Of a DNA stretch of 64,000 nucleotides, positions 1,795 to 60,074 are shown piece by piece. The position numbers were made by a program, and so were the translations under genes. Within the stretch, counting starts at the first letter, position 1. Every line of letters begins with the position of its first letter. Under the pieces are notes generated by a model that saw only the letters and a list, made by a program, of their open reading frames with translations, ran no database searches and had not been told where the DNA came from. The stretch covers positions 19,778,001 through 19,842,000 of the forward strand of contig OZ024759.1 of assembly GCA_964016885.1 (NCBI GenBank), written 5' to 3'. Source of the stretch: Eledone cirrhosa. Its lineage: Eukaryota.

Positions 1795-3010
1795 CGTCAT
1801 GTCTAAAAGCACCCAGTCCACACTGTAAAGTGGTGGTGTAGGTGTCTTGACAAAAAGCACCCAGTCCACACTGTAAAGTGCTGGTGTAGGTGTCGCAACT
1901 AAAAGCACCCAGTCCACACTGTAAAGTGCTGGTGTAGGTGTCGCAACTAAAAGGACCCAGTCCATACTGTAAAGTAATCGTGTAGGTTGTCACGTGAAAA
2001 AGCACCCAGTACACATTGTAAAGTGGTCATGTAGGCAACACGGCAAAAAGCACCCAGTCCACACTGTAAAGTGGTCATGTAGGTGTCTTGACAAAAAGCA
2101 CTCAGTCCACACTGTAAAGTGCTGGTGTAGGTGTCGCAACTAAAAGGACCCAGTCCATACTGTAAAGTAATCGTGTAGGTTGTCATGTGAAAAAGCACCC
2201 AGTACACATTGTAAAGTGGTCATGTAGGCAACACGGCAAAAAGCACCCAGTCCACACTGTAAAGTGGTCGTGTAGGTGTCTTGACAAAAAGCACCCAGTC
2301 CACACTGTAAAGTGCTGGTGTAGGTGTCGCAACTAAAAGGACCCAGTCCATACTGTAAAGTAATCGTGTAGGTTGTCACGTGAAAAAGCACCCAGTACAC
2401 ATTGTAAAGTGGTCATGTAGGTATCATGACAAAAAGCACCCAGTCACACTCTAAAGTGGTCGTGTGGGTGTCTTGACAAAAAGCACCCAGTCCACACTGT
2501 AAAGTGGTGGTGTAGGTGTCACATCAAAAAAGCAGCCAGCCTACACTGTAAAGTGGTCATTTTGGTGTCATGACTAAAAGGACCCAGCCCACACTGTAAA
2601 GTGGTCATGTAGGTGTCACAACTAAAAGGACCCAGCCTACACTGTAAAGTGGTTGTGTAGGTGTCACAACTAAAAAGACCCAGTCCACACTGTAAAGTGA
2701 TCATGTAGGTGTCATGACTAAAAGAACCCAGCCCACACTGTTAAGTGGTCATCTAGGCAACACAACAAAAATCACCCAGTCCACACTGTAAAGTGGTCAT
2801 GTAGGTGTCATGACAAAAAGCACCCAGCACACACAGTAACTGTGGTTGGCATTAGGAAGGGCATCCAGCCATAGAAACCAAGCCAAAGCAGTTCTGTGTG
2901 ATCGAATCACGGTTTCCAAACCTGATACCTTACAAAGGAACAGCCTGTCCTACCCATGCTAGTGTGGAAGATGGACATTAAACGATGATGATGATGATCA
3001 TGATGATGAT
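1795..3010 (+). repeat. 48-bp minisatellite (about 22 copies, 193-bp higher-order unit) inside a family 1-related SINE
   Basis: aaaagcacccagtccacactgtaaagtggt.. units followed by aggaagggcatccagc and a (tga)n tail. Confidence 0.88.
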
Positions 3011-3053
3011 GAATTGACAAGTATGTTTGGTAAATTTACTTTTTCATTTATAG

Positions 3054-3286
3054 GTACACCTTTACAACACTATCCTTGCACAATAATTGCACCAAAGTCG
3101 CAGTGTGTGTACAAGAAGCAGCTACAGGTGCAATATCCAATAACATCAGCACTTTGGTCGGAAATGGAAGAGAGAGGACATGTAGACAATGAACCGATGA
3201 CAGTTCCGCAGAAACCAATATTGGCATCGGACAACCAATTTAGGAAAGGCTTCCGAAGATGGGTAGCAATGCCGGAAGTTATCGAG
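3054..3286 (+). CDS. Internal coding exon of the same gene (G-TPLQHYPCTIIAPKSQCVYKKQLQVQYPITSALWSEMEERGHVDNEPMTVPQKPILASDNQFRKGFRRWVAMPEVIE)
   Basis: ttttcatttatAG acceptor (3052-3053) and GAG|GTAATA donor at 3287. Phase 1 start matches the preceding exon (G+GT=Gly); ends in phase 0; complex peptide. Confidence 0.8.
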
Positions 3287-3341
3287 GTAATAATAAAAAT
3301 AATAATAATAATATAGGGATACATATATCCATATGTATGTG

Positions 3342-3416
<75 letters not shown>

Positions 3417-3514
3417 CATCATCATAATCATCATTTTACATCCGCTTTTCCCTGCTTGCAAGGCTGGGACAATATATAATATATATATTATAAACATGTT
3501 TCTTTACTTGAATG

Positions 3515-3549
<35 letters not shown>

Positions 3550-3768
3550 GTGTATTTATATGTATATTTGTATATGTAAGTGTTATATATATACATATAT
3601 ATATATATATGTGTGTGTGTGTTTGTGTATAGGCATATGTACATGTATGTATATAAGCATGCAAACACACATCCAGGTGTGTATTATATAGATTCAATAT
3701 ACATATATAATACACACCTGGATGTGTGTGTATGTATGCATATATAAATACAGACACACATATATATA

Positions 3769-3840
<72 letters not shown>

Positions 3841-3950
3841 TAAGTGGATAAATAAAGAAATAAAGAAGAAATGTTTTACTCTCATAGGCGATGTTTTCCC
3901 ATTTTCTCATCACCATATTTTATTTAAAAAAGAGACGATTATATATACAT

Positions 3951-3984
<34 letters not shown>

Positions 3985-4136
3985 GACTCTCTCTCTCTCA
4001 CAGACTCACACGCATACACACTAAGTTTCCTGTGTAAATGTAAGAGAACTTCCCTTTTTTGAAGTGTGTGTATATATATATACATATATATCTATGCTAG
4101 CTTGTGATATTGGATGTTAAGCGGTGATGATGGTAA

Positions 4137-4178
<42 letters not shown>

Positions 4179-4228
4179 CATACATAAATGCATATTATAT
4201 GTATGTATATATATGTATATTCACACAC

Positions 4229-4261
<33 letters not shown>

Positions 4262-4329
4262 CATACATAAACGCATATTATATGTATATATGTATATGCA
4301 TATATATATATATACACATACATATATGC

Positions 4330-4425
<96 letters not shown>

Positions 4426-4439
4426 TATATATATATATG

Positions 4440-4470
<31 letters not shown>

Positions 4471-4482
4471 GTATATATATAT

Positions 4483-4541
<59 letters not shown>

Positions 4542-4644
4542 CATCCTCCTCATCAACACTGTTTTATGTCCACACACACACACACATAGATACATGCACA
4601 CACACACACATATACTCACACACACACACACACACATATATACT

Positions 4645-4676
<32 letters not shown>

Positions 4677-4988
4677 CACACACAACACATATATATATTT
4701 ATGTTTAGGATGAGATATGATATAATGTAGAAATGTAACCAGTAAATTATTGATATCTCAACTGACATGATATACCACATTGATATCCATCAGCTTTCAC
4801 TTAGTTTTAAGTTTGTCGCAAGTGATATTTCCTATGATATCTCCTATGATATATCATTATATATTTTGTATATTTCATATATCTCATATATCTCATTGCT
4901 CTGTTTTCTACACAACCACGATATTTCATAATTCATAAAGCTGTGTGTATATATGTATGTATGTATATATATCCATTTGGGGATATCA

Positions 4989-5047
<59 letters not shown>

Positions 5048-5048
5048 C

Positions 5049-5121
<73 letters not shown>

Positions 5122-5150
5122 CATATATATATATACATATATATATATAC

Positions 5151-5199
<49 letters not shown>

Positions 5200-5215
5200 C
5201 ATATATTATATATAC

Positions 5216-5377
<162 letters not shown>

Positions 5378-5391
5378 ATTTGGGGATATCA

Positions 5392-5430
<39 letters not shown>

Positions 5431-5474
5431 GGGATATCAGTATATTAGTATATATATAAGTATATATATATAAG

Positions 5475-5520
<46 letters not shown>

Positions 5521-5880
5521 ATTCAGAGACATCAGTATATTAATATTGGATATCCATTTGATATATTTATCGTAGAAAGTTAAGTGAAAATAACGTCTCT
5601 GCATCATCATCATCACCACCATCATCATCACCATCATTGTCATCATCATCATCACCACCATCATCATCATTGCCATCATCACCATCACAATTATATTCAT
5701 CATCACCATTGCCATCATCATCATCATCACCACCACCACCATCAACATCATCATCATCAACATTGTCATCATCATCATTCTCATCATCATCACCACCATC
5801 ATCACCACCACCACCACCACCATCATCAACATCATCATCATCATCAGCATCAACATCATCATCATCATCATCATCATCAT

Positions 5881-5916
<36 letters not shown>

Positions 5917-5919
<3 letters not shown>

Positions 5920-6172
5920 GGAGGTGAGTTTTATTGTAGTACAATAAAGCAATGCAGATATCGGATAAGAAGCACTCAACAGTTTGTAGGACTGGAGTAT
6001 AAATAATATATAAGATCAAAAGATGGTTAAAAGAGTTCCATGTATTTTATTATGCGCATTTCAAAAACAAATATCATCATGGGATGATATTTGCGTTCTC
6101 ATCAGATAAAATAGGGAGACATGATATGAAGCTTAAACAACACTTGCGAGCAGTGAAGTGTCAAATCAACAT
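5917..6172 (-). mobile_element. Short non-autonomous hammerhead-bearing element, family A (Penelope-like/retrozyme-type)
   Basis: About 255 bp with its 3' end abutting (TA)n; second copy at 7554-7837 shares both ends; contains a complete hammerhead motif. Confidence 0.75.
6043..6113 (-). ncRNA. Type I hammerhead ribozyme with minimal palindromic stem III
   Basis: Minus strand: TATTTTAT-CTGATGA-gaacgCAAATATCATC ccat GATGATATTTGttttt-GAAA-TGCGCA-TA^ATAAAATA. 8-bp perfect stem I, 11-bp perfect stem II core, ATGCGCAT palindrome; predicted cleavage between 6051 and 6050. Confidence 0.88.
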
Positions 6173-7553
6173 ATGAAAAATAAAACTAGAGGGATATATG
6201 AGATTGGGAAAGGGGAAAGGAAGGGAGAAAGAAAAGGTCAGGAAGAGGAAGAAAAAATATAGATAGAAGAAAAAAATAATAATAATAAGGAAAGGATGAC
6301 TGACGGAGGAGGAGTATAAGAAGGAAGGATGAGAGAGGAGAAAATGAGAGAGAGAGAGATAACCTTTAATACTGAGAAACACTGTCTCACAGAGAAAAAT
6401 AAAAAAAAACCGTTGTAAGATAATACATAATTTTAAAAAAATTAAGAAATTAAAAGTTAATGAGGTTTATGAATGGTGATGCTTATGATTAAAGAAAAAG
6501 GAATTAAGAATACTATTTATTTAAGGTTTATATATTGAAGGGTTTAATAAGATGTGTGAAAAGGAATTTATTAAAATCATCATCATCATCATCACCGTTT
6601 TACGTCCGTTCTTCCACGCTAGCATGGGTTAGACGGGTTGTCCTGTTGTGGGCAGTGTCTGGTCGGCTGACCATGCCTTGCTCATACAGGAACTGATCTG
6701 GCTTGATTTCTACAGCTGGATGCCCTTCCTAACACCAACCTCATTTACAGTGAGTGCTGGGTGCTTTTTCGTGGCGCCTACACGTCCACTTTACAGTGTG
6801 GGCTGGGTGCTTTTTTGCCGTGGCACCTCCACGACCACCTTGCGGTGGGGGGGGGGGGGCATATTGTTTATATGCTTCAGCATGTACCCATGGGAGGTCG
6901 GGTACCCTGTATTACTGCGTGACGCCAGAAGTCACGGTCGTGTGTCATGTATTACTGCGTGACGCCAGAAGTCACGGTCGTGTGTATTATTAAATTTATT
7001 AAATGTATTAATAATACATTTTAATAAATTCCTTTTCGCACATCTTATTAAACCCTTCAATATATAAACCTTCAATGGATGTTGTGGTACCAACGTAACT
7101 TTATAGAGAAAGAGGTGATGTTGGCGCGAGTGGAAGGATGGAGTAGAGGTAGTGGGTTAGGGTGTCTGTTTGGGTTGGAGGGGCCTACTGACTGTAGGTT
7201 AACTTTGCACGTAGGGAAGGCGGGAGTTTTGTATTACTGCGTGGTGCCAGAGATCTCGATCCAGTGACATTGTCTTAGAGAGGTGCAAGTGTGCAAGGTC
7301 ACAATTTATCATGTCATCCCAGGTTTTTCTGGGTCTACCTTCTCTGTAATTTCGATCAATTTTGATCGCCCTGCACTTTTCTATAAAAATATGGAATGCT
7401 TCACGAATTTGCATATATATATATATATTATCATTTCATCATCATTTCATTTTACGTCCGCTTTTCCCTGCTTGCAAGGGTGGGACGGGAACTGATTCTG
7501 GCTTGATTTCTACAGCTGGATGCCCTTCCTAACACCAACCTCATTTATGATAT

Positions 7554-7837
7554 CAAATATCATCGTGCAATAACATTTGCGTTTTCGTCAGATAAAATAG
7601 GGAGACATGATATGAAGGTTAAAACACACTTGTGAATAGTGCAGTTTTAAATCAACATAGCAAATGTTATTGCATGATGATATTTGTTTTTGAAATGCGC
7701 ATAATAAAATACATGGAACTCTTTTAACCATCTTTTGATCTTATATATTATTTATACTCCAGTCCTACAAACTATAGAGTGCTACTTATCCGATATCTGC
7801 ATTGCTTTATTGTACTACAATAAAACTCACCTCCTAC
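7554..7837. mobile_element. Family A hammerhead element, copy 2, with 5' part inverted
   Basis: 7554-7659 is the minus-strand 5' part (stem I + CTGACGA + stem II); 7660-7837 is the plus-strand 3' part (stem II + GAAATGCGCATA + ATAAAATA + tail). Stem II is duplicated at both breakpoints. Confidence 0.8.
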
Positions 7838-7849
7838 ACACATATATAT

Positions 7850-7900
<51 letters not shown>

Positions 7901-8439
7901 GTATTTATCAAGGTGCTTGGATGATTTGAAATTTGAATTGTGAGAATCACTACAGAGAAAATAACTGTAAGAAAATTCAATTGAACACCAATATTTGAGA
8001 GATATGGAATATGGAGTTTAATTCTCTTTAATAAGTGCTGGCTACTTTATTCCTGTCTCTGAGGAATATTTTACCAGATTTTTCTAAAGCTATTATTTAT
8101 AGTAATTGACAGTTGTTACAGTTATTTGCTGTGTTTGGATTCCGACATTTCAAATATATATATATTTGTGAGTGTGTGGTTATATATATATATATGAGTA
8201 TATATATGTGTGTTTGTGTGTGTATATATAGATGTGTGTTTGTGTGTGTGTATATGTGTGTGTGTGTGTATACATGTGTATGTATGTGTATATGCGTGTA
8301 TATATGTGTGTATAGATGTGTGTATATATATATATGTGTGTATATATGTATATGTGTGTATATATGTATGTGTGTGCATATATATATGTGTGTGCATATA
8401 TATATATGTGTGTGTGTATACATGTGTGTATATATATGA

Positions 8440-8844
8440 GAGATGACCCCTTAGCCTTTGTCAAGGCAGAATTCTAGGAGAAGGAAAACTCTGATATAAC
8501 ACCTGCAACCCTGATGGTATCCAATGATGTTGACTTGTTCTTCTTTTTGGTAAATATCATCTTGGTTAAGAGAGTGGGACTGGCTTTGTGCAGTGCCTTT
8601 GCTCACTATAAAAGCTTCACAGCACAGGCATTGCTTTATATCTGGAGATCTCTCTGCACTTGTCGTCACATGGTACCATGGGCCCAGCACTATGTGTCAA
8701 TAATGGTCACAAGTGTAGTCTATGTGCCAGAGTTTTCAAGTCGCTGGCTAGACTAAAAAGTCACATTCGTTCAGCGCATCGGTAGGGGTTCTCCTACATG
8801 GATATAAAGTAGTGGCCGTACTCGAAAACGAGTTGGCAGCCACC
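8440..8844 (+). mobile_element. Bipartite RTE-derived non-autonomous element, 5'-truncated
   Basis: RTE 5'UTR-like ggagaaggaaaactctg fused to a 3' C2H2 remnant (CSLCARVFKSLARLKSHIRSAH); near-identical to 50679-51287. Confidence 0.78.
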
Positions 8845-9318
8845 ATATATATGAGTATATATATGTGTGTGTATGTATATATATATGTGCGTATGTGTAT
8901 ACATGCGTATATATGTGTGTGTATATGTATATATGTATGTATATATGTATATACACATACACACACATAGTATGGCTGTGTTCTGACGTCTGAAACCAGT
9001 TAAAGATTAAATGCATACACACACACACACACACACATGAGAGAGTGTGTGTGTGGAAGAGAGGGAGAGACAGACAGACAGACACAGAGTGGGAGGGAGA
9101 AAGGGGAAGGATGGAGAGAGAGTGAGAGAGAGAGAGTGAAAGGATGAGGATGGAGTAAGGAAGCTGGTATAGTTATTCTGGTAAAGCATAAATAGTTACT
9201 ATTTCTGTCATGTATAAAGTTCAATTATAGGAGACCAGGACACACAGACATACACACACACACACACACAGACACACACACACAGACACACACACAGACA
9301 CACACACATACACACACA

Positions 9319-10719: not shown

Positions 10720-12288
10720 TGAATCAGGATGTTGTTGGGGAAAAGTGTGTTTGAAATGACACTATTGTATCAACTTCACTGATGCCCAGAAGAGAGACGC
10801 TTAGAACTGTTATGTCAGATTGATGAATGTGGAGAATGAGTAAAAGGAAGAGAAACTACCCCTGGTTGACCCAACAGAGGAACCAACAGTTATCAAATTT
10901 GACAGTTATAAGGTCAGAGAAGCAATTAGAGAAAATGGAAATATTCTACTTGACCGTCAGACATAGCGACTGAAATTCTGAAATCATTTGGTGAAGTAGG
11001 ATTGAATGGAGTTACTTGTGTAATCAATCAGGTAATACATGATGGTGTCATACCCAATGACTGACATAGCAATATCATTGTTAATTGTGACAAGAGAAGA
11101 GGTGATTGTGTGATACCCAGGAAAAGGAGGAACTACTGGAGGCTGAAAACAAATGGTTCAGTTTATGAAAGTGACAGAAAGAGTTTTAACACGACTAGTT
11201 AGAGAAAGAGTCAAATTAGATGAAGTGTTGTTTGGTCTAGGACCTGGAATGAGCACCACAGATGTCTTCTTATTAGTGAGACAACAACATGTGTACCTCA
11301 GGGATCTGTTCTTGGCCCCCTTTTGTTTGTGGCATATATTAATGACATAGATGCCAACTTAAGGAATGCCACAGTACTAAAGTACGCAGACGACATCAAG
11401 CTGTACCTTGAGATAAAAAGGACAGATCCTGAACACTATAGATCTTGCTTGCAGTCTGACCTGGACACAATGCAACAGTGGATCTCAGACTGGCAACTCA
11501 AGCTAGCTGTGGACAAGTGCACCACCATGCATTTTGGGAGTAAAAACCCAGCGTCCACATATTCCCTCCACAGCACTAATATCAAGAAGTCTTCCTGTGA
11601 ACGTGACCTGGGCATTACGGTCAGCAGCGATTTGCGTTGGACGAGGCACGTCTCTAAAATTGTCAAGAGGGCCGAGGGTGTCTTAGCATCACTCAGCAAG
11701 ACCTTTGTCAGCCGCTCTCCAGATATCTATTTAAGGCTGTATACAGCTATGGTGCGACCACACTTAGAATTTGCATCACCAGTCTGGAACCCCTATCTTG
11801 CTCAGGACATTGACCGCCTGGAAACTGTTCAGAGACGTGCAACCAAGCGAATACCCTCCATCAGGCATCTACCATACTCTGATCGCCTTGCTTCCCTGGG
11901 CATGGATTCATTGAAGCTCCGACGCCTGGTAACTGACTTGGTAAACACCCACAAAATTGTTAACCATGTTGCCAACAACAACCCTGAGTGCCTTTTCGAT
12001 TTCCATGTGTCTAACACACGTGGACATGCCCACAAAGTAAGAAAACAGCACAGTTCCCATGACTTTCGGAAACATTTTTTCACGCTCAGAGTTGCTGAAG
12101 CATGGAACAAACTACCTGCATCAGTTGTTAGCTGTCGAGACGCTGCATCCTTTAAGGCCTCCATGCTTCCCGAGATCCGCCAACACTACAGCTAACACAT
12201 ACAAACATGTACTTCCCTGGCATTTGTGTATTATTCTATGTACTATATTGACGAGTTGTAGTGCACCTGAGCACTTTTCACAATAATT

Positions 12289-13016: not shown

Positions 13017-14215
13017 AGGATTGGCAGTATCGGTAGAGCATCAGACACCATGCTTTGCAGCATAGAGTTACGGCCCTTGCCATTCTGAGTTCAAATCCCG
13101 CCGAGGTTGACTTTGCCTTTCATCCTTACGGGGTCGATAAAATAAAGTGCCAGTAATGACGCATAGAGTTATGGCCCTTGCCATTCTGAGTTCAAATCCC
13201 GCCGAGGTTGACTTTGCCTTTCATCCTTACGGGGTTGATAAAATAAAGTGCCAGTAATGACGCATAGAGTTACGGCCCTTGCCATTCTGAGTTCAAATCC
13301 CGCCGAGGTTGACTTTGCCTTTCATCCTTACGGGGTCGATAAAATAAAGTGCCAGTAATGACGCATAGAGTTACGGCCCTTGCCATTCTGAGTTCAAATC
13401 CCGCCGAGGTTGACTTTGCCTTTCATCCTTACGGGGTCGATAAAATAAAGTGCCAGTAATGACGCATAGAGTTACGGCCCTTGCCATTCTGAGTTCAAAT
13501 CCCGCCGAGGTTGACTTTGCCTTTCATCCTTACGGGGTTGATAAAATAAAGTGCCAGTAATGACGCATAGAGTTACGGCCCTTGCCATTCTGAGTTCAAA
13601 TCCCGCCGAGGTTGACTTTGCCTTTCATCCTTACGGGGTCGATAAAATAAAGTGCCAGTAATGACGCATAGAGTTACGGCCCTTGCCATTCTGAGTTCAA
13701 ATCCCGCCGAGGTTGACTTTGCCTTTCATCCTTACGGGGTCGATAAAATAAAGTGCCAGTAATGACGCATAGAGTTACGGCCCTTGCCATTCTGAGTTCA
13801 AATCCCGCCGAGGTTGACTTTGCCTTTCATCCTTACGGGGTTGATAAAATAAAGTGCCAGTAATGACGCATAGAGTTACGGCCCTTGCCATTCTGAGTTC
13901 AAATCCCGCCGAGGTTGACTTTGCCTTTCATCCTTACGGGGTCGATAAAATAAAGTGCCAGTAATGACGCATAGAGTTACGGCCCTTGCCATTCTGAGTT
14001 CAAATCCCGCCGAGGTTGACTTTGCCTTTCATCCTTACGGGGTCGATAAAATAAAGTGCCAGTAATGACGCATAGAGTTACGGCCCTTGCCATTCTGAGT
14101 TCAAATCCCGCCGAGGTTAACTTTGTTTTTCATCCTTACGGGGTCGATAAAATAAAGTGCCAGTAATACACTGGGGTAATTGCTGGTCTTGTGCCAAAAG
14201 TAGAAACAGTTATTA
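13017..14215 (+). repeat. SINE family 2 with an internal 101-bp segment amplified 11 times
   Basis: Units start at 13061 with period 101 to 14071; single A-box head and single tail; each unit has B-box gagttcaaatcc. Confidence 0.92.
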
Positions 14216-15599: not shown

Positions 15600-16385
15600 C
15601 ATCATTTTACGTCTGCTTTTCCCTGCTTGCAAAGGTGGGACGGCTCCTATTCAGCACAGCTTCTCTCCACTTGTCACGGTCCTTCGTCATCTCGACCGTG
15701 AGCTTCAGCGATCTGAGGTCAGCTCTCACCACCTCTGTCCATGTTTTTTGTGGTCTTCCTCTACTGCATCTTCCTTCTACTGGGATTTCTTGGCACTTCT
15801 TTACCCAGCGGTTACCCCCCATGCGCATCACATGTCCATACCAACGCAGTTTTCTCTCCCACACACTACAGCTTCTCCCTCTTATACTCAGTTTCTCTCT
15901 CAACACATCCATGCTTGGTCGTTCACGCACATTGACATTGTACATCCAACGGAACATGCTTGCTTCATTTCTCTCCAGCCGTCGCTTATCCTCTGCAGTT
16001 GCTGCCCATGTCTCACTACCATACATCATCGCGCATCTCACACAGGCATCATATAACCGTCCTTTCGTACGCAAGGAGAAACCCTTCTTTGTCAACAGAG
16101 GAAGCAGCTCCCTAAACCTCTTCCAACCTGTCCTTATTCTAGATACTATGGCCTTGGAGCACCCTCCTCCTCACCGAGGTATCGGAAGCTATCAACCACT
16201 TCTATAGATCCTATCTGCATTTGAAAAATATGTCTATCATTGTGACTTCTGCTGTCAAATTTCCCTATACATCTACTGCATATATAGTTTCCCTACCTGT
16301 TAGTTTGCCTGCTATCCCATTACAACTCTTGTGTACCCAAGATCTGCATTGTGTACATTTTATAGAATTTATGCCAGCTCCTTTT
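15600..16385 (-). mobile_element. RTE-type LINE 3' fragment
   Basis: KGRLYDACVR..MMYGSETW..LRWYGHVMRM..RGRPQKTW with a (TGA)n tail; degraded Cys-rich segment upstream. Confidence 0.88.
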
Positions 16386-16694: not shown

Positions 16695-19015
16695 ACTCTT
16701 TGGTGACTGACAGACAAATAGACAGATGGACAGGTCTGGCCTGGGTAGGTTGGTAAGAAAATATAGTTCAGAAGTCTCCTTGGTGACAGACAGACAGACA
16801 GGCCTGGCCTGGGTAGGTTGGTAAGAAAATATAGTTAAGAAGGCCCCTTGCATCCTTGGTGACAGACAGACAGGTCTGGTCTGGGTAGATTGGTAAGAAA
16901 ATATAGTTAAGAAGGCCCCTTGCATCCTTGGTGACAGACAGACAAACAGACAGAGAGACAGGTCTGGTCTGGGTAGGTTGGTAAAAAATATAGTTTAGAA
17001 GTCCCCTTGCATCCTTGGTGACAGACAGACAGTCAAACAGACAGACAGGTCTGGCCTGGGTAGGTTGGTAAGCAAATATAGTTAGGAAGGCCCCTTGCAT
17101 CCTTGGTGACAAACAGACAAACAGACAGACAGGTCTGGCCTGGGTAGGTTGGTAAGAAAGTATAGTTAAGAAGTCCCCTTGCATTCTTGGTGACAGACAG
17201 ACAGGTCTGGTCTGGGTAGGTTGGTAAGAAAATATAGTTAGGAAGGCCCCTTGCATCCTTGGTGACAAACAGACAGACAGGTCTGGTCTGGATTGGATGG
17301 TAAGAAAATATAGTTAAGGCCAATTGCCTCCTTGTTGACAGACAGGCAGGTCTGGTCTGGTCTGGGTGGGTTGGGAAGAAAATATAGTTAGGAAGGCCCC
17401 TTGCATCCTTGGTGACAGACAGACAGACAGGTCTGGTCTGGTCTGGATTGGATGGTAAGAAAATATAGTTAAGGCCAATTGCCTCCTTGTTGACAGACAG
17501 GCTGGTCTGGTCTGGTCTGGGTGGGTTGGGAAGAAAATATAGTTAGGAAGGCCCCTTGCATCCTTGGTGACAAACAGACAGACAGGTCTGGTCTGGTCTG
17601 GTCTGGTCTGGGTGGGTTGGGAAGAAAATATAGTTAGGAAGGCCCCTTGCATCCTTGGTGACAAACAGACAGACAGGTCTGGTCTGGATTGGATGGTAAG
17701 AAAATATAGTTAAGGCCAATAGCCTCCTTGTTGACAGACAGGTCTGGTCTGGTCTGGTCTGGTCTGGGTGGGTTGGGAAGAAAATATAGTTAGGAAGGCC
17801 CCTTGCATCCTTGGTGACAAACAGACAGAGAGGTCTGGTCTGGATTGGATGGTAAGAAAATATAGTTAAGGCCAATAGCCTCCTTGTTGACAGACAGGTC
17901 TGGTCTGGTCTGGTCTGGTCTGGGTGGGTTGGGAAGAAAATATAGTTAGGAAGGCCCCTTGCATCCTTGGTGACAAACAGACAGACAGGTCTGGTCTGGA
18001 TTGGATGGTAAGAAAATATAGTTAAGGCCAATTGCCTCCTTGTTGACAGACAGGCAGGGCTGGTCTGGTCTGGTCTGGGTGGGTTGGGAAGAAAATATAG
18101 TTAGGAAGGCCCCTTGCATCCTTGGTGACAAACAGACAGACAGGTCTGGTCTGGATTGGATGGTAAGAAAATATAGTTAAGGTCAATTGCCTCCTTGTTG
18201 ACAGACAGGCCTGGTCTGGTCTGGGTGGGTTGGGAAGAAAATATAGTTAGGAAGGCCCCTTGCATCCTTGGTGACAAACAGACAGAGAGGTCTGGTCTGG
18301 ATTGGATTGTAAGAAAATATAGTTAAGGCCAATTGCCTCCTTGTTGACAGACAGGCCTGGTCTGGTCTGGTCTGGGTGGGTTGGGAAGAAAATATAGTTA
18401 GGAAGGCCCCTTGCATCCTTGGTGACAAACAGACAGACAGGTCTGGTCTGGATTGGATGGTAAGAAAATATAGTTAAGGTCAATTGCCTCCTTGTTGACA
18501 GACAGGCAGGGCTGGTCTGGTCTGGTCTGGGTGGGTTGGGAAGAAAATATAGTTAGGAAGGCCCCTTGCATCCTTGGTGACAAACAAACAGACAGGTCTG
18601 GTCTGGATTGGATGGTAAGAAAATATAGTTAAGGCCAATTGCCTCCTTGTTGACAGACAGGCAGGGCTGGTCTGGTCTGGTCTGGGTGGGTTGGGAAGAA
18701 AATATAGTTAGGAAGGCCCCCTGCATCCTTGGTGACAAACAGACAGAGAGGTCTGGTCTGGATTGGATGGTAAGAAAATATAGTTAAGGTCAATTGCCTC
18801 CTTGTTGACAGACAGGCAGGGCTGGTCTGGTCTGGTCTGGGTGGGTTGGGAAGAAAATATAGTTAGGAAGGCCCCTTGCATCCTTGGTGACAAACAAACA
18901 GACAGGTCTGGTCTGGATTGGATGGTAAGAAAATATAGTTAAGGCCAATTGCCTCCTTGTTGACAGACAGGCAGGGCTGGCCTGGGTAGGTTGGTAAGAA
19001 AATATAGTTAAGAAA
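16695..19015. repeat. Minisatellite with 70-90-bp monomers and about 155-bp dimeric higher-order repeat
   Basis: Constant aagaaaatatagtta core with (GACA)n and (GGTCT)n; alternating A/B monomers from about 17230. Confidence 0.92.
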
Positions 19016-21280: not shown

Positions 21281-23210
21281 TATTGTTTTTATGTCTGCTT
21301 CTCCGTTCCTGTATGTTAGACATCTTTTCCAGTACAGCCCCCCCCCCCCCCCCCCTCTACAGCATTCCTTCAATGTCATCTCCTTTGTGAGCTTCAACAT
21401 TTTGAAATCCACTCTCACTATCCCTGCGCAGGTCTTCCTTGGTCTTCCTCTACTGCAGCTTCCTTCCTTTGAGAACTCTTGGCACTTTTTCAACCTTAAA
21501 CATCACATGTCCATACCAGAGCAATCTTCTCTGTTGTGCATTTTATCCCTCTTACACCCAGTTTCTCTCTCATCTCATCCATACTTTGTCATTTATACAC
21601 ACTAACACAACATGTCCATACCAGAGCAGTCTTTTCTCTTGCACACTACATTCGATACCCAGTTTTTCTCTCAGCTCATCCATGCTCACATTATATGTCC
21701 ATACCAGAGCAGTCTTCTCTGTTGCACACTATATTTGATTCCTCTTATACTCAGTTACCCAGTTTCTCTTCCAGCTCAGCCATACTAATACCACATGTCC
21801 ATACCCGAGCAGTCTTCTCACTTGCTCACTACATCTGATCCCTCTTATATCCAGTTAACCAGTTTCTCTCCCAGCTCAGCCATACTAACACCACATGTCC
21901 ATACCCGAGCAGTCTTCTCTCTTGCACACTACTTTACATTTGATTCCTCTTATACCCAGTTTCTCTCCCAGCTCATCCATACTTTGTTATTCATACATAC
22001 TAACAACACATGTCCATACCAGAACAGTCTTCTCTCTTGCACACTACATTTGATTCCTCTTATACCAAGTTTTTCTCCCAGCTCATCCATACTTTGTTAT
22101 TCATACATACTAACATCACATGTCCATACCAGAACAGTCTTCTCTCTTGCACACTACATTTGATTCCTCTTATACCAAGTTTTTCTCCCAGCTCATCCAT
22201 ACTTTGTTATTCATACATACTAACATCACATGTCCATACCAGAACAGTCTTCTCTCTTGCACACTACATTTGATTCCTCTTATACCCAGTTTCTCTCCCA
22301 GCTCATCCATACTTTGTTATTCATACATACTAACATCACATGTCCATACCAGAACAGTCTTCTCTCTTGCACACTACATTTGATTCCTCCTATACCCAGT
22401 TTCTCTCCCAGCTCATCCATACTTTGTTATTCATACATACTAACATCACATGTCCATACCAGAACAGTCTTCTCTCTTGCACACTACATTTGATTCCTCT
22501 TATACCCAGTTTCTCTCCCAGCTCATCCATACTTTGTTATTCATACATACTAACATCACATGTCCATACCAGAACAGTCTTCTCTCTTGCACACTACATT
22601 TGATTCCTCCTATACCCAGTTTCTCTCCCAGCTCATCCATACTTTGTTATTCATACATACTAACATCACATGTCCATACCAGAACAGTCTTCTCTCTTGC
22701 ACACTACATTTGATTCCTCCTATACCCAGTTTCTCTCCCAGCTCATCCATACTTTGTTATTCATACATACTAACATCACATGTCCATACCAGAACAGTCT
22801 TCTCTCTTGCACACTACATTTGATTCCTCTTATACCCAGTTTCTCTCCCAGCTCATCCATACTTCGTTATTCATACATACTAACAACACATATCCATACC
22901 AGAACAGTCTTCTCTCTTGCACACTACATTTGATTCCTCTTATACCAAGTTTTTCTCCCAGCTCATCCATACTTTGTTATTCATACATTCTAACAACACA
23001 TGTCCATACCAGAACAGTCTTCTCTCTTGCACACTACATTTGATTCCTCTTATACCCAGTTTCTCTCCCAGATCATCCATACTTTGTTATTCATACATAC
23101 TAACATCACATGTCCATACCAGAACAGTCTTCTCTCTTGCATACTACATTTGATTCCTCTTATACCCAGTTTCTCTCCCAGCTCATCCGTATTTTATCAT
23201 TTATATACGT
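21280..23210 (-). repeat. RTE 3' fragment with a 110-bp coding segment amplified as a minisatellite (about 12 near-perfect plus about 4 degenerate copies)
   Basis: Period 110 (tgtccatacc at 22011 ... 23111); minus strand reads LGIRGIKCSVQERRLFWYGHVM, matching the RTE at 15607. Confidence 0.88.
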
Positions 23211-27215: not shown

Positions 27216-27312
27216 TGTTGTGTGTATGTGCGTGTATATATATATATATATATATATGAGTGTGTGTGTGTATGTTTATATATATATATATTTTTTTTTA
27301 TTTTATAGAAGG

Positions 27313-27363
27313 AGCTTCTACAGGACTAGTACTGTTTCATTCAGATGAAATCTTCAGGAAGCT
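27313..27363 (-). ncRNA. Mirror-image hammerhead in the left palindrome arm
   Basis: Exact reverse complement of 27360-27410. Confidence 0.7.
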
Positions 27364-27410
27364 TCCTGAAGATTTCATCTGAATGAAACAGTACTAGTCC
27401 TGTAGAAGCT
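27360..27410 (+). ncRNA. Type I hammerhead ribozyme (family C)
   Basis: AGCTTC-CTGAAGA-tTTC atct GAAt-GAAACAG tactagtc CTGTA^GAAGCT. 6-bp stem I, 4-bp stem III with ACTAGT palindrome in the loop, GUA cleavage triplet; stem II short with U-U at its base. Confidence 0.75.
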
Positions 27411-27768
27411 CCTTCTATAAAATAAAAAAAATTTTACTCTGCCATGTATTGAGTACCTTACTTACTGTGGTTATCCCCGACTCAACCCGGGACCTACGTA
27501 TATATATATATATACACACACACACATATATATATCTTTATATGTTGTGTGTTTGGGGGGGGGGGAGATCTAGCTATATTGATGGTGGCCCTAGGTGCAT
27601 TGCCATTCTAGAGAAACAGTAAAGGACCCTACCCTTCTATAATATTATGTAATGTATATGAAGGTCTAGAAATATTGATAGTGCATCTAAGATTGTTGAG
27701 AAATAGCCAAGCATTGTAACCCTACCATAACCTTTAGTAATAATATATATATATATGGTGTCTAATGG

Positions 27769-27841: not shown

Positions 27842-27911
<70 letters not shown>

Positions 27912-27920
27912 GTATGAATA

Positions 27921-28061
27921 TAATGAAGGAAGTTTGGTAAGGAACCAGGTGGAACATAACACACCAAAGTACTCGATGCTATGGGTAGTAGAGTGGGTAA
28001 TAGGAAAAGAGTCAAGACCCCGACTGCTGAGCTCCGGCCATTTTGACAGCTATTTCTGAAT
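27921..28061. mobile_element. Family D element, older diverged copy
   Basis: Alignable to the first about 140 bp of the 234-bp unit; stops at the same position; TA flanks. Confidence 0.75.
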
Positions 28062-28077
28062 GTGTATATATATATAT

Positions 28078-28564
<487 letters not shown>

Positions 28565-28589
28565 GCCTCCATATATATATATATATATT

Positions 28590-28712
28590 TTTATCCCAGG
28601 TTCAATCGGGGGTAACCATAGTAAGTAAGGAACTCAATACATAGCAGGGTATAAATATTTAATATAGAAATGGCTTCTACAGGACTAGAACTGTTTCATT
28701 CAGAAGAAATCC
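28590..28712 (-). mobile_element. Family C element, 5'-truncated within the hammerhead core
   Basis: Minus: ..GAtttc ttct gaat GAAACAG ttctagtc CTGTA gaagc.. plus the family tail; the CTGA part is missing. Confidence 0.65.
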
Positions 28713-30510: not shown

Positions 30511-30917
30511 AGATGATATGGAAATATTGATGGTGGCCCTAGGAACTTTACCATTCCAGACAAACAGCAAATAATGTTACTCCTCACCCTGTATCACGCC
30601 TGGATTAACCATTATGCAAAATAAACACATGTTTAGGTCATCAAAAAAAAAGGGGGCACCATTAAATTCAAACTAATTCTATTTGTCATCCCAAAAGAAC
30701 ATTTTTTCAGATTTTATATAAGGGTGCAGAGGGGGTGACTCTGTGGCAGGGGATCATCATGGTTTTTTAAGTGTTTCAGGCCTGAAAAAGACTTAAGGGA
30801 GCTCTGCCTCCTTGTATGCTAAGTTACACAATGTCTGTGTTTGGAGTATATAGAAAGATCTAGAAATGTTCATGTTTGATCTATGAACTAGTTCATATTA
30901 ACAACAAAGAACCTTAT

Positions 30918-31063
30918 CCCTAACCCTAACCCTACTCCTAACCCTAACCCTACTCCTAACCCTAACCCTACTCCTAACCCTACTCCTAACCCTAACCCTA
31001 CTCCTAACCCTACTCCTAACCCTAACCCTACTCCTAACCCTAACCCTACTCCTAACCCTAACC
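30918..31063. repeat. Interstitial telomere-like (CCCTAA)n with regular CCCTACT variants
   Basis: Direct reading; about 24 hexamers. Confidence 0.85.
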
Positions 31064-31939: not shown

Positions 31940-32804
31940 TAATTGTGTACAGTGCTCAGGTGCACTACAACTCATCAAAAGTGCATGTAGAGTACACAGA
32001 ATAATATACAAATGTCGGAAAAGTGAACAGTGTATGAGTCATGATATACATGTGTGTGTGTGTATGGAGGGGGGACATCAGGTGTAGTGTTGGCGAATTT
32101 CAGGAAGCATGGAGGTTTTAAAGGATGCAGTGTCTCGGCAGCTAACAACTGATGCAGGTAGTTTGTTCCATGGAGGTTTTAAAGGATGCAGTGTCTCGAC
32201 AGCTAAAAACTGATGCAGGTAGTTTGTTCCATGGAGGTTTTAAAGGATGCAGTGTCTCGACAGCTAAAAACTGATGCAGGTAGTTTGTTCCATGGAGGTT
32301 TTAAAGGATGCAGTGTCTTGGCAGCTAATATCTGGTGCAGGTAGTTTGTTCCATGGAGGTTTGAAAGGATGCAGTGTCTCGACAGCTAACAACTGATGCA
32401 GGTAGTTTGTTCCATGGAGGTTTTAAAGGATGCAGTGTCTCGACAGCTAACAACTGATGCAAGTAGTTTGTTCCATGGAGGTTTTAAAGGATGCAGTGTC
32501 TCGACAGGTAACAACTGATGCAGGTAGTTTGTTCCATGGAGGTTTTAAAGGATGCAGTGTCTCGACAGCTAACAACTGATGCAGGTAGTTTGTTCCATGG
32601 AGGTTTTAAAGGATGCAGTGTCTCGACAGCTAAAAACTGATGCAGATAGTTTGTTCCATGGAGGTTTGAAAGGATGCAGTGTCTCGACAGCTAACAACTG
32701 ATGCAGGTAGTTTGTTCCATGGAGGTTTGAAAGGATGCAGTGTCTCGACAGCTAACAACTGATGCAAGTAGTTTGTTCCATGCTTCAGCAACTCTGAGCG
32801 TGAA
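31940..32804 (-). repeat. CR1 3' end with a 61-bp segment amplified 11 times
   Basis: Units at 32111 with period 61 to 32781; reverse complement of about 12101-12165; CATG at the unit boundaries. Confidence 0.92.
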
Positions 32805-40143: not shown

Positions 40144-40170
<27 letters not shown>

Positions 40171-40174
<4 letters not shown>

Positions 40175-40345
40175 ATATTAATAAATGGAAACTATATTTA
40201 TAAAATCATAATTATTTTATTATATATATTTCAAGGGCAACCAAGGCAATTTTGGTGCGCTTTCATCAGATAAAATACAAAATATGTTTTATAAATGTTG
40301 ACATACCCGTAGAAAAACAACCTTGACGGTTGAAGGTTCTTCTGC
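40171..40345 (-). mobile_element. Short hammerhead-bearing element, family B, copy 1
   Basis: Flanked by (TA)n on both sides; same terminus (caatatatta) as the copy at 53601. Confidence 0.7.
40213..40277 (-). ncRNA. Type I hammerhead ribozyme (family B)
   Basis: Minus: TATTTTAT-CTGATGA-AAGcGCACCAA aattgcc TTGGtTGCcCTT-GAAA-TATATA-TA^ATAAAATA. Confidence 0.85.
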
Positions 40346-40789
40346 ATATATATATATATATATACACACACACATATATTCATATATATATACACACACA
40401 CACATAAATATTCATATATATATTCATATATATATATTTATATATATATATACACACATACATATATCATCATCATCATCATTTAACCCTTTAATGTTAA
40501 AACCGGCCAGAAAACTCTACCTTTTTCTATTAAAACTGGCTGTAACTGGTCACTCAAACTGATGTTATACTTTCAAAATCTCATAAATTCGATATTATAT
40601 GAGATAATTATACGAGGTAAAGCCTTTACCAGGAAAATATAATAGTATATATAGAGTAATGTGAATGCTAAAGGGTTAACATCTATTTTTCTGCAGTTGT
40701 ATGGGTTAGATAGGTTGTCACATTATGAGACAAGCCACGTCCAGAGACCACATCATGATTATACAACAAATCTGTATTTTGGCTTGGTT

Positions 40790-48005: not shown

Positions 48006-50309
48006 TGCACCTGTCCAAGTCCCAGATTGATTTCATTCTGGTGAGGAAAAAGTGGCGGAATAGTGTTCTGAACACGGAACCATACAGCTATTTCAGTACA
48101 CTGGGTAGTGACCACTGGCTTGTTATGAGTGAGGTCCGCGTGAGCTTAAGAAAGAGCAAGGCTCAGCCCTGGAGAACAATCTATGACTGGGGAGCTTTCA
48201 AGGAAGATGATAAGCTGCAGGAGAGGTTCACAGTGGAAGTGAGAAACAGGTTTAGTGCTCTGTGTGGAGAGTCAGAGGAGAGAGAGATTGGATGGACTGA
48301 GGAGAGTGTGATGAGGAGGTACGGGCACTTCACCAATGCAGTGGCGAAAGCAAGTGAAACCCTGGTGCCGAGGAAAAAGAACAAAGGGAAGCACGTCAGC
48401 TCTGCAAACCCAAAAGTGTGTGCAGCCAGAGAACACCTGAAAGCTGCCAGGGACCAATTCTATGCTGATCCTACGGAGGAGAGGATGGAGACTGTGGAGG
48501 TGATGAGGGAAGAGCTCTGTACCGCTTACACTGAGGTCAGAGAGGAGCTGATAGAGAAGATCAGAAGTGTGGAGAGAGCGGTTGACAGATCTGGATGTAA
48601 GGAGAGCTGGATGATCATCAACGAGATCACAGGGAGGAAGAAAAGGTGTTCGAGTCAGATCCAGGGAACGGGGCCCGAGGATAGGAAGAGGAAATGGCTA
48701 GACCATTTTAGGACCCTACTAAGAGAGCCACCCTCCACTGCCCAGAGCACTGGGGAGATCAGGCGGCTGTTTGAGGAACTGGATGTTGAGACAGCCCTTC
48801 ACCAGAGAGGAGCTTCAGAGAGCCAAGAAGAAGATCAAGGAGGGCAAGGCTCATGGAGAAGATGGAGTGGCATCAGAGGTGATGAAGAGGTGTGATTTTG
48901 ATGATATCATCCTGGGGTTCTGTAACGGGGCACTGGAGAAAGGAGTTGCCCCGAATCAGTGGAGGATCAGTAACATCGTCCCAGTGCCAAAGAAGGGAGA
49001 TCTCTCTAACACCAACAACTACCGGGGGATCTCACTGACGTCACTTGTGGCAAAGACCCTCAACAGGATGATTCTTAACAGGATCCAGCCTGAGATGGAG
49101 AAGAAGCTCAGGGACAACCAGAACGGCTTCAGAGAGGGTAGATCAACCACCAGTCACATCCTGATGCTGAGGAGGATATTAGAGGGAGCTAGAGCAAAGT
49201 GCCTTCCTGCGGTCATGGTTTTCATTGACTTTAGGAAGGCCTTTGATTCTGTGGACCGTTACTGCCTGATGAATATCTTACAGGCTTATGGAATCCCCAA
49301 GAGGATAGTGGACCTGATATCACTGCTCTACACCAACACCAAAGCCCAAGTCATTACACCTGATGGGATGACAGAGTTCTTTGAGATACTGGCTGGAGTG
49401 CTCCAGGGAGATACGTTGGCTCCCTACCTTTTTATCATCGTAGTGGACTATTGTATGTGCCTTGCACTGGAGAAACACCAGGACACTGGCTTTACTGTAG
49501 CACCGGCTCAGAGCAGGAGAGTTGGGGCGAAAAAGGTATCGGATACTGAATTTGCCGATGACATAGTTTTGGTGACAAATACAGTGAAGGAGGCAGAGGA
49601 TTTGATGCGGGAGGTTGAGACTGTGTCGATGAGTGTGGGGCTGAGAATGAATGAGACTAAAACAAAATATCTGGTAGAGAATGTTGAGAAGCCAGAGGGG
49701 ATCACTAATGTAGGAGGGAAGCCGCTGGAATTGGTTGAGGACTTCCTGTATTTGGGAGCAAAGATTGGGAATACGGAAGATGATGTGGTTGAGAGGAAGA
49801 GCAAGGCCTGGGCGGCGTGTCACAGCTTGAGATCGGTGTGGAAGTTGGACCTTCGTAGAGACCTGAAAATCCGCCTCTTCATTGCTGTAGTGGAGTCTGT
49901 GCTGCTGTATGGGTCTGAGACTTGGACACTGACCAAGAGACTCACTCAGATGGTGGATGGGTGCTACACGAGAATGCTGAAGATGGCTCTGAACATTAAT
50001 CAGTATACACTGAGGATGAAAAACTCAGAGCTGTATGGGAGCATCCCAAAAGTCAGCTCAAAAGTGACACAGAGGAGACTGAGGTTGGCTGGACATGCTC
50101 ACCGACATCCAGAGTTGACATTGCACTCAGTGCTCCTTTGGGAGCCCCTACATGGACACACTGGAAGAGGAAGACCAAGGTTAACATATGTTGATGCCCT
50201 AAGGACAGACACTGGTCTGTTGGAGATGCAGGATATGGCAGCGATAATGAGGGACAGAGACCGCTGGAGAGAACTCGTCCATGGATCTCGGGAATTTTAC
50301 CCGCCTTAG
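48006..50309 (+). mobile_element. 5'-truncated non-LTR retrotransposon, RTE/RTEX group
   Basis: APE endonuclease C-terminus ([12 protein letters not shown]) followed by RT (NYRGISL, QNGFR, FIDFRKAFDSV, GVLQGDTLAPYLF, FADD, LLYGSETW); one frameshift near 48790; embedded in (TA)n. Confidence 0.95.
48771..50309 (+). pseudogene. Reverse transcriptase portion of the LINE ORF (intact RT domain, upstream frameshift)
   Basis: 512-aa open frame with the non-LTR RT motifs; endonuclease/linker lies in a different frame. Confidence 0.9.
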
Positions 50310-53600: not shown

Positions 53601-53825
53601 CAATATATTAACAAATGGAAACTATATTTATAAAACCATATTTATTTCATTATACATATTTCAAGGGCCACCAAGATAAACTATGGTGCGCTTTCATCAG
53701 ATAAAATATAATATAGGTTAGTTTTATAAATAAATATTGACATACCCTTAAAAAATGCAACCATTCTGGTTGGAATCTACTGTTGAGTGCTTAATATCAG
53801 TTATAAAATATTTTGCTTGTTGTAT
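53601..53825 (-). mobile_element. Short hammerhead-bearing element, family B, copy 2
   Basis: Homologous to 40171-40345 and abuts (TA)n; right boundary approximate. Confidence 0.65.
53643..53708 (-). ncRNA. Type I hammerhead ribozyme (family B, copy 2)
   Basis: Minus: TATTTTAT-CTGATGA-AAGcGCACCA tagtttatct TGGTGgcCCTT-GAAA-TATGTA-TA^ATGAAATA. The stem I change keeps a G-U pair; loop II is diverged. Confidence 0.8.
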
Positions 53826-53882
53826 CCCAACAAATTAAATATAACCTCTACATATATATATATGTATGTATGTATATATAAA

Positions 53883-54246: not shown

Positions 54247-54294
<48 letters not shown>

Positions 54295-54297
54295 AGG

Positions 54298-54410
54298 TAA
54301 GTTATTCCGGGTTGAATCGGAGTTAACCACAGTAAGTAAGGTACTCAATACATAGCATCCTGATGATTTCTAAAGAATGAAACAGTTCTAGTCCTGTAGA
54401 ATCTCATCTA
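54298..54410. mobile_element. Family C element with inversion; hammerhead on + strand at about 54355-54404
   Basis: Minus-strand tail (54298-54358) joined to plus-strand CTGATGA tttc taaa gaat GAAACAG ttctagtc CTGTA gaatc; stem I weakened at the junction. Confidence 0.7.
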
Positions 54411-54466
54411 TATATATATATATGTGAGTGTTTATTAATGTGTGTATGAATATATATATATATATA

Positions 54467-54658
54467 TAACGAAGGAAATGTGGTAAGGAACCAGATGGAC
54501 CATAACGCACCAAAGTACTCAATACTTAGGGTAGTAGAGTGGGTAATAGGAACGAGTAGGACCCCGATGGCTGAGCTCAAGCCGTTTCGACGGCTAATTC
54601 TGGACACAATTAGCTGTCGAAACGGCTTGAGCTCAGCCGTCGGGGTCCTACTCGTTCC

Positions 54659-54661
<3 letters not shown>
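54467..54661. mobile_element. Family D element, partial unit with the same terminal inversion
   Basis: Same start (taacgaagg), same turn point (aattctggac) and same inverted end (ttccta|tata) as 59376-60040; several substitutions. Confidence 0.85.

Positions 54662-54690
<29 letters not shown>

Positions 54691-58921: not shown

Positions 58922-60074
<1,153 letters not shown>

What the first reader, a model, noticed from the sequence alone, without database searches (positions are those of the whole stretch)
40213..40277. Second hammerhead family showing covariation with the first
Seen: same stem I (TATTTTAT/ATAAAATA) and core as family A, but an unrelated stem II sequence that still pairs, and a different palindrome in stem III (TATATA versus TGCGCA). 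Retention of pairing and palindromy under sequence change argues for selection on RNA structure rather than a chance motif match in AT-rich DNA.
Basis: partly seen in the sequence, partly recalled or inferred. Interest (0 to 1): 0.75.

Follow-up and report, generated by a model that had tools for sequence, protein, structure and literature searches.

The report
Penelope-retrotransposon hammerhead with real covariation
This is a likely self-cutting hammerhead RNA at the tail of a very abundant Penelope-like jumping gene; sister families of the element have kept its base pairs while changing the letters, which is good evidence of selection but matches a kind of RNA already described.

Summary
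The motif is real, on the minus strand: a type I hammerhead with intact core, AUA cleavage triplet and an 8-nt palindromic stem III. It lies in a 175-bp, 5'-truncated copy of a Penelope-like retrotransposon inserted in (TA)n; longer copies encode a reverse transcriptase and C-terminal endonuclease with Hydra-clade motifs. The genome holds 52,986 exact matches of this lineage (control 0). 'Families' A and B are not independent: they are sisters (endonucleases 49% identical) and their proximal stem II is homologous, not unrelated. Covariation holds across 32 subfamily copies: 5 of 6 stem II pairs change on both sides (tree-aware P about 0.0004); stem III alone is not significant (P 0.11). Only core position 7 varies between subfamilies. 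Genomic copies run through the cleavage site, so the copied template was a re-joined circle or uncut RNA. Cleavage, expression and dimers are untested. Hammerheads with palindromic stem III in Penelope-like elements, including Hydra-clade ones, are published; this sequence family was not found in six searches. The scan has noted Penelope hammerheads many times on other DNA of this genome.

The parts
40213..40277 (-). Type I hammerhead motif (family B)
40270..40277 (-). Stem I, 5' strand (pairs with 40213-40220)
   Evidence: 255 of 256 cells paired in 32 copies (99.6%)
40263..40269 (-). Core C3-A9 (CTGATGA)
   Evidence: only position 7 varies between subfamilies
40233..40262 (-). Stem II: 3 pairs, conserved C.C mismatch, further pairs, variable distal hairpin
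40229..40232 (-). Core G12-A15.1 (GAAA)
40222..40229 (-). 8-nt self-complementary stem III (A15.1 + TATATA + U16.1), predicted to pair between two hammerheads
   Evidence: prediction only
40220..40221 (-). Predicted cleavage site, after the AUA triplet (H17 = 40221)
   Evidence: position from the hammerhead consensus; cleavage not tested
40213..40220 (-). Stem I, 3' strand
40196..40296 (-). Possible distal extension of stem I (40283-40296 with 40196-40210) beyond an internal loop
   Evidence: duplex -8.7 kcal/mol, 9 of 200 shuffles as good; strong in most B/G copies, weak in A and D copies
40171..40339 (-). 5'-truncated 3' end of the Penelope-like element, ending at the 'short' end at 40171
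   Evidence: longer copies join this sequence to an RT-endonuclease ORF
40339..40345 (+). Inverted 7-nt piece matching the element's 'long' end, at the 5' junction
   Evidence: same letters end the tail of long-end copies; short, so chance is not excluded, but the layout recurs in other copies
40144..40170 (.). (TA)n target, short-end side
40346..40363 (.). (TA)n target, other side
53601..53851 (-). Second B-lineage copy; hammerhead at 53643-53708 with TATGTA, inverted long-end piece at about 53776-53851
6043..6113 (-). Family A hammerhead (TGCGCA) of the sister element; its tail runs to 5884
7554..7870 (.). Second family A copy, inverted arrangement, one hammerhead on each strand, both incomplete

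Best explanation
The stretch is a type I hammerhead motif in the 3' end of a truncated Penelope-like retrotransposon copy, likely of the Hydra clade, and in the element's active parent copies it likely cuts the element's RNA as a dimer. Shown: the motif, its place 1-2 kb behind an RT-endonuclease ORF, (TA)n targets, selection on core and stem II across sister subfamilies, a full copy with two direct hammerheads 3,709 nt apart around the ORF, and genomic copies that run through the cleavage site. Inferred: in a read-through transcript of such a pLTR-ORF-pLTR copy the two hammerheads pair through their palindromes and swap stem I strands, cut out a unit-length RNA, the ends re-join, and the element's RT copies the circle from two fixed start sites near the hammerhead into nicked (TA)n DNA. 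The window copy itself is a dead single copy with no known role.
For: Motif and controls. ORF link in all subfamilies with an endonuclease in reach; motifs DKT, CxCx5C, CxxC-E, CxH; these are the Hydra-clade marks in PMC8557442 section 11. Covariation: 569 of 576 cells paired (98.8%), 6 of 18 pairs with changes on both sides; RNAalifold finds stems I and II unaided; tree-aware P 0.00035 for stem II. Core-blind count of 231 copies: position 7 has all four bases (29 non-T), other core positions differ in 2-11 copies, 4 of the rows being misregistered. Within 8 groups (125 of 184 copies) private changes break pairs in 13 of 19 cases, shared ones in 2 of 10. Folding model: 2-bp monomer stem III costs about 3 kcal/mol, B homodimer -22.0 against -15.2 for two open monomers. 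Full element L244. Template continuity: 3 family A copies end in (TA)n at the cleavage site against 9,020 that run on; of 30 copies with the ORF start, 19 continue back across the upstream cleavage site and 1 stops within 10 nt of it.
Against: No cleavage, transcript, dimer or circle was observed. Cervera and de la Pena found only low cleavage for related metazoan motifs even as dimers (PMC4209133). Pair 10.1-11.1 is A-U in this copy, G-C in only 2 of 32 and A.C in one abundant subfamily. The B palindrome is weak (-3.2 kcal/mol alone). Only 1 of 36 close pairs examined was a direct repeat (loci partly chosen for inverted pairs). Copies that never end at the cleavage site are equally expected if the template is never cut. 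Pfam and PDB gave no match to the proteins, so the RT and endonuclease are identified by motifs and by eye against published Hydra proteins. The 32 representatives were picked by eye.
Confidence: 0.72

Rival explanations
1. The hammerhead fold is selected but the copied RNA is not cut: the RT uses uncleaved read-through or tandem transcripts, and the structure serves as a protein-binding, packaging or slow regulatory element, or cuts only side products.
For: [quoted passage not shown]
Against: Every catalytic position is kept between families whose proteins are about 49% identical, with variation only at position 7; a binding site would not need that exact pattern. 4 of 30 copies start within 4 nt of one full unit length (small number, at the edge of the query).
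Confidence: 0.17
2. The motif cuts as a monomer, with the extended stem I and the C.Y internal loop of stem II forming tertiary contacts that make up for the 2-bp stem III; the palindrome is then secondary.
For: Conserved mismatch in stem II (1 of 184 paired); distal stem I predicted in most B/G copies; palindromy alone not significant on the tree (P 0.11); direct pairs are rare.
Against: Closing stem III in the monomer is unfavourable in the model; 10 of 12 recurrent hammerhead families in the fetched DNA have fully self-complementary stem III; about 50,100 of about 53,000 copies carry TATRTA or TGCGCA.
Confidence: 0.07
3. The apparent covariation comes from mutation bias and shared descent (A-to-G editing of paired RNA, CpG decay, AT drift), not from selection.
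For: All stem I changes that keep pairing are A-to-G giving G.U, as RNA editing would give (editing lead from scan note e1-8671701, not tested); few independent events; 'pairs with a change on both sides' did not exceed shuffles (166 of 500).
Against: Stem II changes include both A/G and C/T on opposite strands; the tree-aware null keeps descent and transition bias and still gives P 0.00035; private changes break pairs, shared ones mostly do not.
Confidence: 0.03
4. Chance match in AT-rich DNA.
For: Weak folding of the 65-mer (z -1.10); no Rfam hit; stem I and TATATA are AT-only.
Confidence: 0.01

Closest known systems
Hammerheads in pLTRs of Penelope-like elements (Cervera and de la Pena 2014, PMC4209133, parts 1-2 of 4 read; review PMC6765202, passages; Lunse et al. 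2017, not held, known only from its title and the review)
   Same: Type I topology, short palindromic helix III, long helix II, place in the pLTR, many single truncated copies and opposite-strand pairs, several families per genome with compensatory changes, proposed dimer cleavage and circular template.
   Different: No extra base between positions 9 and 10.1, mostly A-U rather than G-C at 10.1-11.1, 8-bp stem I, conserved C.Y mismatch in stem II; at least 52,986 copies of one lineage against about 2,000-9,000 motifs per genome in that paper (different descriptors).
Hydra clade of C-terminal EN+ Penelope-like elements, including Hydra-1_Obim (Craig et al. 2021, PMC8557442; passages, section 11, supplement part 2 and passages read)
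   Same: RT then C-terminal endonuclease, DKT, CxCx5C linker, CxxC and CxH beside the conserved E and N, no CCHH, (TA)n targets, canonical hammerhead near the 3' end, inverted 5' copies and a tail at one end only.
   Different: Hammerhead sequence matches none of those in File S2; stem III is an even 8-nt palindrome; unit about 3.7 kb (described as generally under 3 kb); RWI instead of RWK in family A; tail about 95-100 nt against 30-40 nt described for Naiads.
Metazoan non-LTR retrozymes (bioRxiv 10.64898/2026.07.22.740005, part 1 of 5 and passages; PMC7229834, search listing only)
   Same: Type I hammerhead, link to Penelope-like pLTRs.
   Different: This lineage is dispersed, not tandem, and is the end of a protein-coding element.

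Membership tests
Type I hammerhead ribozyme | Core C3 U4 G5 A6 N7 G8 A9, G12 A13 A14 A15.1, U16.1, H17 | tested here: met
Type I hammerhead ribozyme | Three helices, molecule ends in stem I | tested here: met
   stem III is 2 bp as monomer, 8 bp as predicted dimer
Type I hammerhead ribozyme | Site-specific self-cleavage | not testable with these tools
   no assay; no usable RNA reads
Rfam hammerhead families | Covariance-model match | tested here: not met
   no hammerhead among 6 hits at E<=10; not filed under an Rfam family
Minimal hammerhead consensus of Cervera and de la Pena 2014 | Extra base between 9 and 10.1 and G10.1-C11.1 | tested here: not met
   A-U 22, G.U 7, G-C 2, A.C 1 of 32, no extra base; not filed under this subtype
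PLE hammerheads with small palindromic helix III | Self-complementary positions 15-16 and loop 3 | tested here: met
   (176-183 of 184 paired per position)
PLE hammerheads with small palindromic helix III | Located in the pLTR / 3' repeat of a Penelope-like element | tested here: met
PLE hammerheads with small palindromic helix III | Cleavage as a dimer | not testable with these tools
   energy model only
Hydra-clade Penelope-like element | Single ORF, RT followed by C-terminal GIY-YIG-type endonuclease | tested here: met
   by motifs, Pfam silent
Hydra-clade Penelope-like element | DKT motif | tested here: met
   families A and B
Hydra-clade Penelope-like element | CxCX5C linker; CxxC and CxH beside conserved E and N; no CCHH | tested here: met
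   absence of CCHH judged by eye
Hydra-clade Penelope-like element | N-terminal RWK motif | tested here: inconclusive
   RWI in one family A copy; N-terminus of family B not seen
Hydra-clade Penelope-like element | Insertion into (TA)n | tested here: met
Hydra-clade Penelope-like element | RT groups with Hydra families in a tree | not tested
   reference proteins seen only as supplement text; compared by eye
Non-LTR retrozyme | Non-coding tandem repeat with a hammerhead in each unit | tested here: not met
   dispersed copies tied to an ORF

The most novel reading that the evidence does not exclude
Stem III works as a family password: co-resident sister retroelements keep one stem I but diverge in the palindrome, so each cuts only with its own kind (A/B heterodimer predicted unfavourable, -18.7 against -21.4 kcal/mol for the open monomers), and the cut unit is re-joined to a circle that the RT copies for more than one turn. 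Tens of thousands of copies would then be a natural mutational record of an obligate-dimer ribozyme and of circle-templated retrotransposition.
Probability: 0.15. Interest if true: 0.6.

Novelty: new member of a known kind. Interest (0 to 1): 0.3.

Why it matters
The role of hammerheads in endonuclease-bearing Penelope-like elements is stated to be unclear (PMC8557442). This lineage gives a large natural series: many subfamilies, proteins down to about 49% identity, an unchanged catalytic core, compensated stem II, three main palindromes and a full pLTR-ORF-pLTR copy. It shows purifying selection on a catalytic fold in the parent elements and that the copied template spans the cleavage site, and it supplies natural pairs for homo- and heterodimer tests. 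It does not add a new RNA class or mechanism.

Tried and rejected
Rfam: only microsatellite-driven miRNA noise and no hammerhead. The repeat finder on the window was swamped by microsatellites. Pfam (6 protein stretches) and PDB sequence search gave nothing. RNA evidence: 11 runs listed, the 8 RNA or RNA-guess runs at share 0.04, contigs only; 4 laid, only a run of unrecorded kind covered the stretch, so nothing on expression, strand or ends. Plus-strand reading: folds slightly better (z -2.62) but has no core. Naiad/Chlamys rejected (endonuclease is C-terminal); Neptune/Nematis/Penelope rejected on linker and missing CCHH. Host gene context: no host exon recognised among 117 long frames, not pursued further. 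The G.U over A.C excess (44 against 3 cells) was not used as proof of selection because A-to-G editing could give it. In the protein tree L193 and L235 are long branches and L193's endonuclease probably belongs to another element; no root or order of events is claimed. Lunse et al. 2017 could not be read; one search fetched an unrelated paper. Supplements of PMC4209133 and of the preprint, and Lunse et al., may list this motif family. R-scape is not available here.

Full report
Observation. The coordinates hold a type I hammerhead on the minus strand: stem I (8 bp), CUGAUGA, a 30-nt stem II, GAAA, UAUAUA, UA, stem I. The window has two more complete motifs, 53643-53708 (loop TATGTA) and 6043-6113 (family A, TGCGCA). 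A descriptor that ignores stem III finds 3 in the window against 0.03 expected (100 resamples). The 65-mer alone folds no better than shuffles (z -1.10) and Rfam has no hammerhead match, as expected for a motif whose third helix is 2 bp in a monomer.

What it belongs to. The window is G000:C20:19778001-19842000 of a 3.0-Gb animal genome; the host was not identified (its repeats recall cephalopod genomes, from memory, untested). The 161 bases around the motif have 1,700 candidate matches, the 40 scored being mostly 97-99% identical. Walking upstream reaches an endonuclease and RT frame; that endonuclease has 54,959 candidates. Family A leads to a related ORF. In one search an endonuclease match lies within 2.5 kb upstream of hammerheads of the A, B, G and D subfamilies (44 rows, some the same locus twice; none found for E). 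A and B proteins are 61% identical over 197 N-terminal RT residues and 49% over the endonuclease. They carry DKT, CxCx5C, CxxC-E and CxH and lack CCHH, the marks of the Hydra clade (PMC8557442 section 11), and resemble published Hydra proteins by eye. Pfam and PDB are silent. The window copy is 40171-40345, between (TA)n runs, 5'-truncated, with 7 inverted bases of the element's far end at its 5' junction.

Copy number. The pattern stem I + core + 20-45 nt + GAAA + 6 nt + UA + stem I has 52,986 exact matches, control 0. With the pattern one letter shorter, 41,127 have TATRTA and 9,020 TGCGCA, together about 95% of the first count (slightly inflated by the shorter pattern). Sixty evenly spaced 10-kb stretches from 11 large contigs held 14 of this lineage and 42 hammerhead-like motifs of all kinds against 0 in reversed sequence, which would extrapolate to about 200,000 in the genome, tandem copies included.

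Covariation. I aligned 32 real copies, chosen by eye as one or a few per subfamily. Of 576 cells 98.8% pair; 5 of 6 proximal stem II pairs change on both sides; sliding the partners drops pairing to 37-59%. The count of pairs with double changes did not beat the shuffles (166 of 500), while cells paired and covariation score did (0 of 500), a control that ignores descent. RNAalifold finds stems I and II unaided. On a tree built from flanks only, with the same number of changes per column dropped at random as transitions, stem II shows 2 unpaired cells of 160 against 30.3 (P 0.00035); stem III 2 of 64 against 10.2 (P 0.11); stem I is uninformative. In all 184 copies extracted automatically, stem II pairs 1-3, 5 and 6 pair in 175-180, position 4 in 1; private changes break pairs 13 of 19 times, shared ones 2 of 10 (8 groups, 125 copies). 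In a core-blind set of 231 copies position 7 shows all four bases in recurring subfamily variants, other core positions only scattered changes. Selection therefore acted on parent elements, not on inserted copies. Of 12 recurrent hammerhead families in the fetched DNA, 10 have a self-complementary stem III (one central unpaired base allowed), one a long hairpin, one neither; some of the 12 may be related.

Mechanism. Closing stem III costs the monomer about 3 kcal/mol; the strand-swapped B homodimer scores -22.0 against -15.2 for two open monomers, A/A -40.5 against -27.6, B/B2 -21.8 against -15.0, A/B -18.7 against -21.4, but A/B2 -24.3 against -21.2, so the predicted family barrier is not complete (nearest-neighbour model, no tertiary terms). 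L244 is a full family A copy: pLTR with hammerhead, tail, 5' UTR, ORF, 3' UTR, second hammerhead, with cleavage sites 3,709 nt apart. Cutting at both would free a unit RNA. Yet copies do not end there: 3 family A copies go into (TA)n at the site against 9,020 that run on (patterns differ upstream), and of 30 copies with the ORF start (30 of 40 scored, one being the query) 19 continue back through the upstream site, 6 stop in the tail, 4 at the tail/UTR boundary and 1 near the site. The template was thus continuous across the site: a re-joined circle, as proposed in PMC4209133, or uncut RNA. Copies end at two fixed places, about 45-50 and about 135-150 nt past the hammerhead; of 36 close pairs 35 are divergent, and 26 of the 28 classifiable divergent pairs have one end of each kind (loci partly chosen for such pairs). 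A one-sided tail is described in PMC8557442. Cleavage, dimers, circles and transcription are inferred, not shown; public RNA data were uninformative.

Comparison and novelty. Type I hammerheads with palindromic stem III in Penelope-like pLTRs, dimer cleavage and within-genome families 'full of covariations' are published (PMC4209133, parts 1-2 read; PMC6765202, passages; Lunse et al. 2017 not readable). Hydra-clade elements with canonical hammerheads, one from an octopus, are listed in PMC8557442 File S2, with different sequences. A 2026 octopus repeat annotation mentions Penelope-like elements but has no occurrence of 'hammerhead' or 'ribozyme' in its main text (PMC13282606). Searches showed no paper on this motif family; unread supplements may hold it. 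The scan has 349 notes fitting 'hammerhead Penelope' in this genome, some describing the same two-ended footprint in other families; none near this place or like this sequence. Verdict: real, selected, a new family of a known kind; interest 0.3.

Noticed in passing
L244:5380-9245 (G000:C1:12244000-12253999), minus strand: Full pLTR-ORF-pLTR family A element with two direct hammerheads 3,709 nt apart; the ORF has frame breaks and a (CA)/(TA) insertion in the 3' UTR.
   Followed up: yes
window 5940-5990 and tails of long-end copies (e.g. L005, L035, L165, L184): The ~100-nt tail holds a conserved TACTC...GAGTG hairpin, with varying inner stem, in A, B, G, D and E subfamilies (energies weak, -1 to -5.5 kcal/mol); possible RT or end-recognition signal.
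   Followed up: partly
window 40236 and 40259: Fourth position of stem II is a mismatch (mostly C.C or C.U) in 183 of 184 copies; unexplained, possibly a tertiary contact.
   Followed up: partly
L099:616-681 and related copies: An abundant subfamily has A.C at the first pair of stem II next to the core (6-7 copies seen), which should impair cleavage yet spread.
   Followed up: no
window 27292-27431, 28533-28711, 54250-54412: A third hammerhead-like family (longer stem III with ACTAGT-type loop), once as a perfect 140-bp palindrome.
   Followed up: partly
window 54406-54679, 59315-60058, 27858-28058: Another repeat family with GAAA followed by a long palindromic hairpin (GAGCTC loop), hammerhead-like with U3-A8 core.
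   Followed up: no
L127:1964-2893, L095:3083-3560, L135:454-937: Tandem hammerhead repeats of about 310-320 nt (retrozyme-like) beside the copies studied.
   Followed up: no
window 48723-50309: 528-residue open frame of a non-LTR (RTE-like, label recalled) reverse transcriptase; further LINE fragments at 11224-12195 and 15607-16170.
   Followed up: no
window 30910-31063: Interstitial run of CCCTAA-like telomere-type repeats.
   Followed up: no
window 13060-14167, 17034-18985, 21881-23195, 32108-32782: Homogeneous tandem arrays of 101, 155, 110 and 61 bp.
   Followed up: no
L057:1391-1437, L089:805-849: Copies whose stem II has collapsed to 10-12 nt by deletion between short repeats.
   Followed up: no
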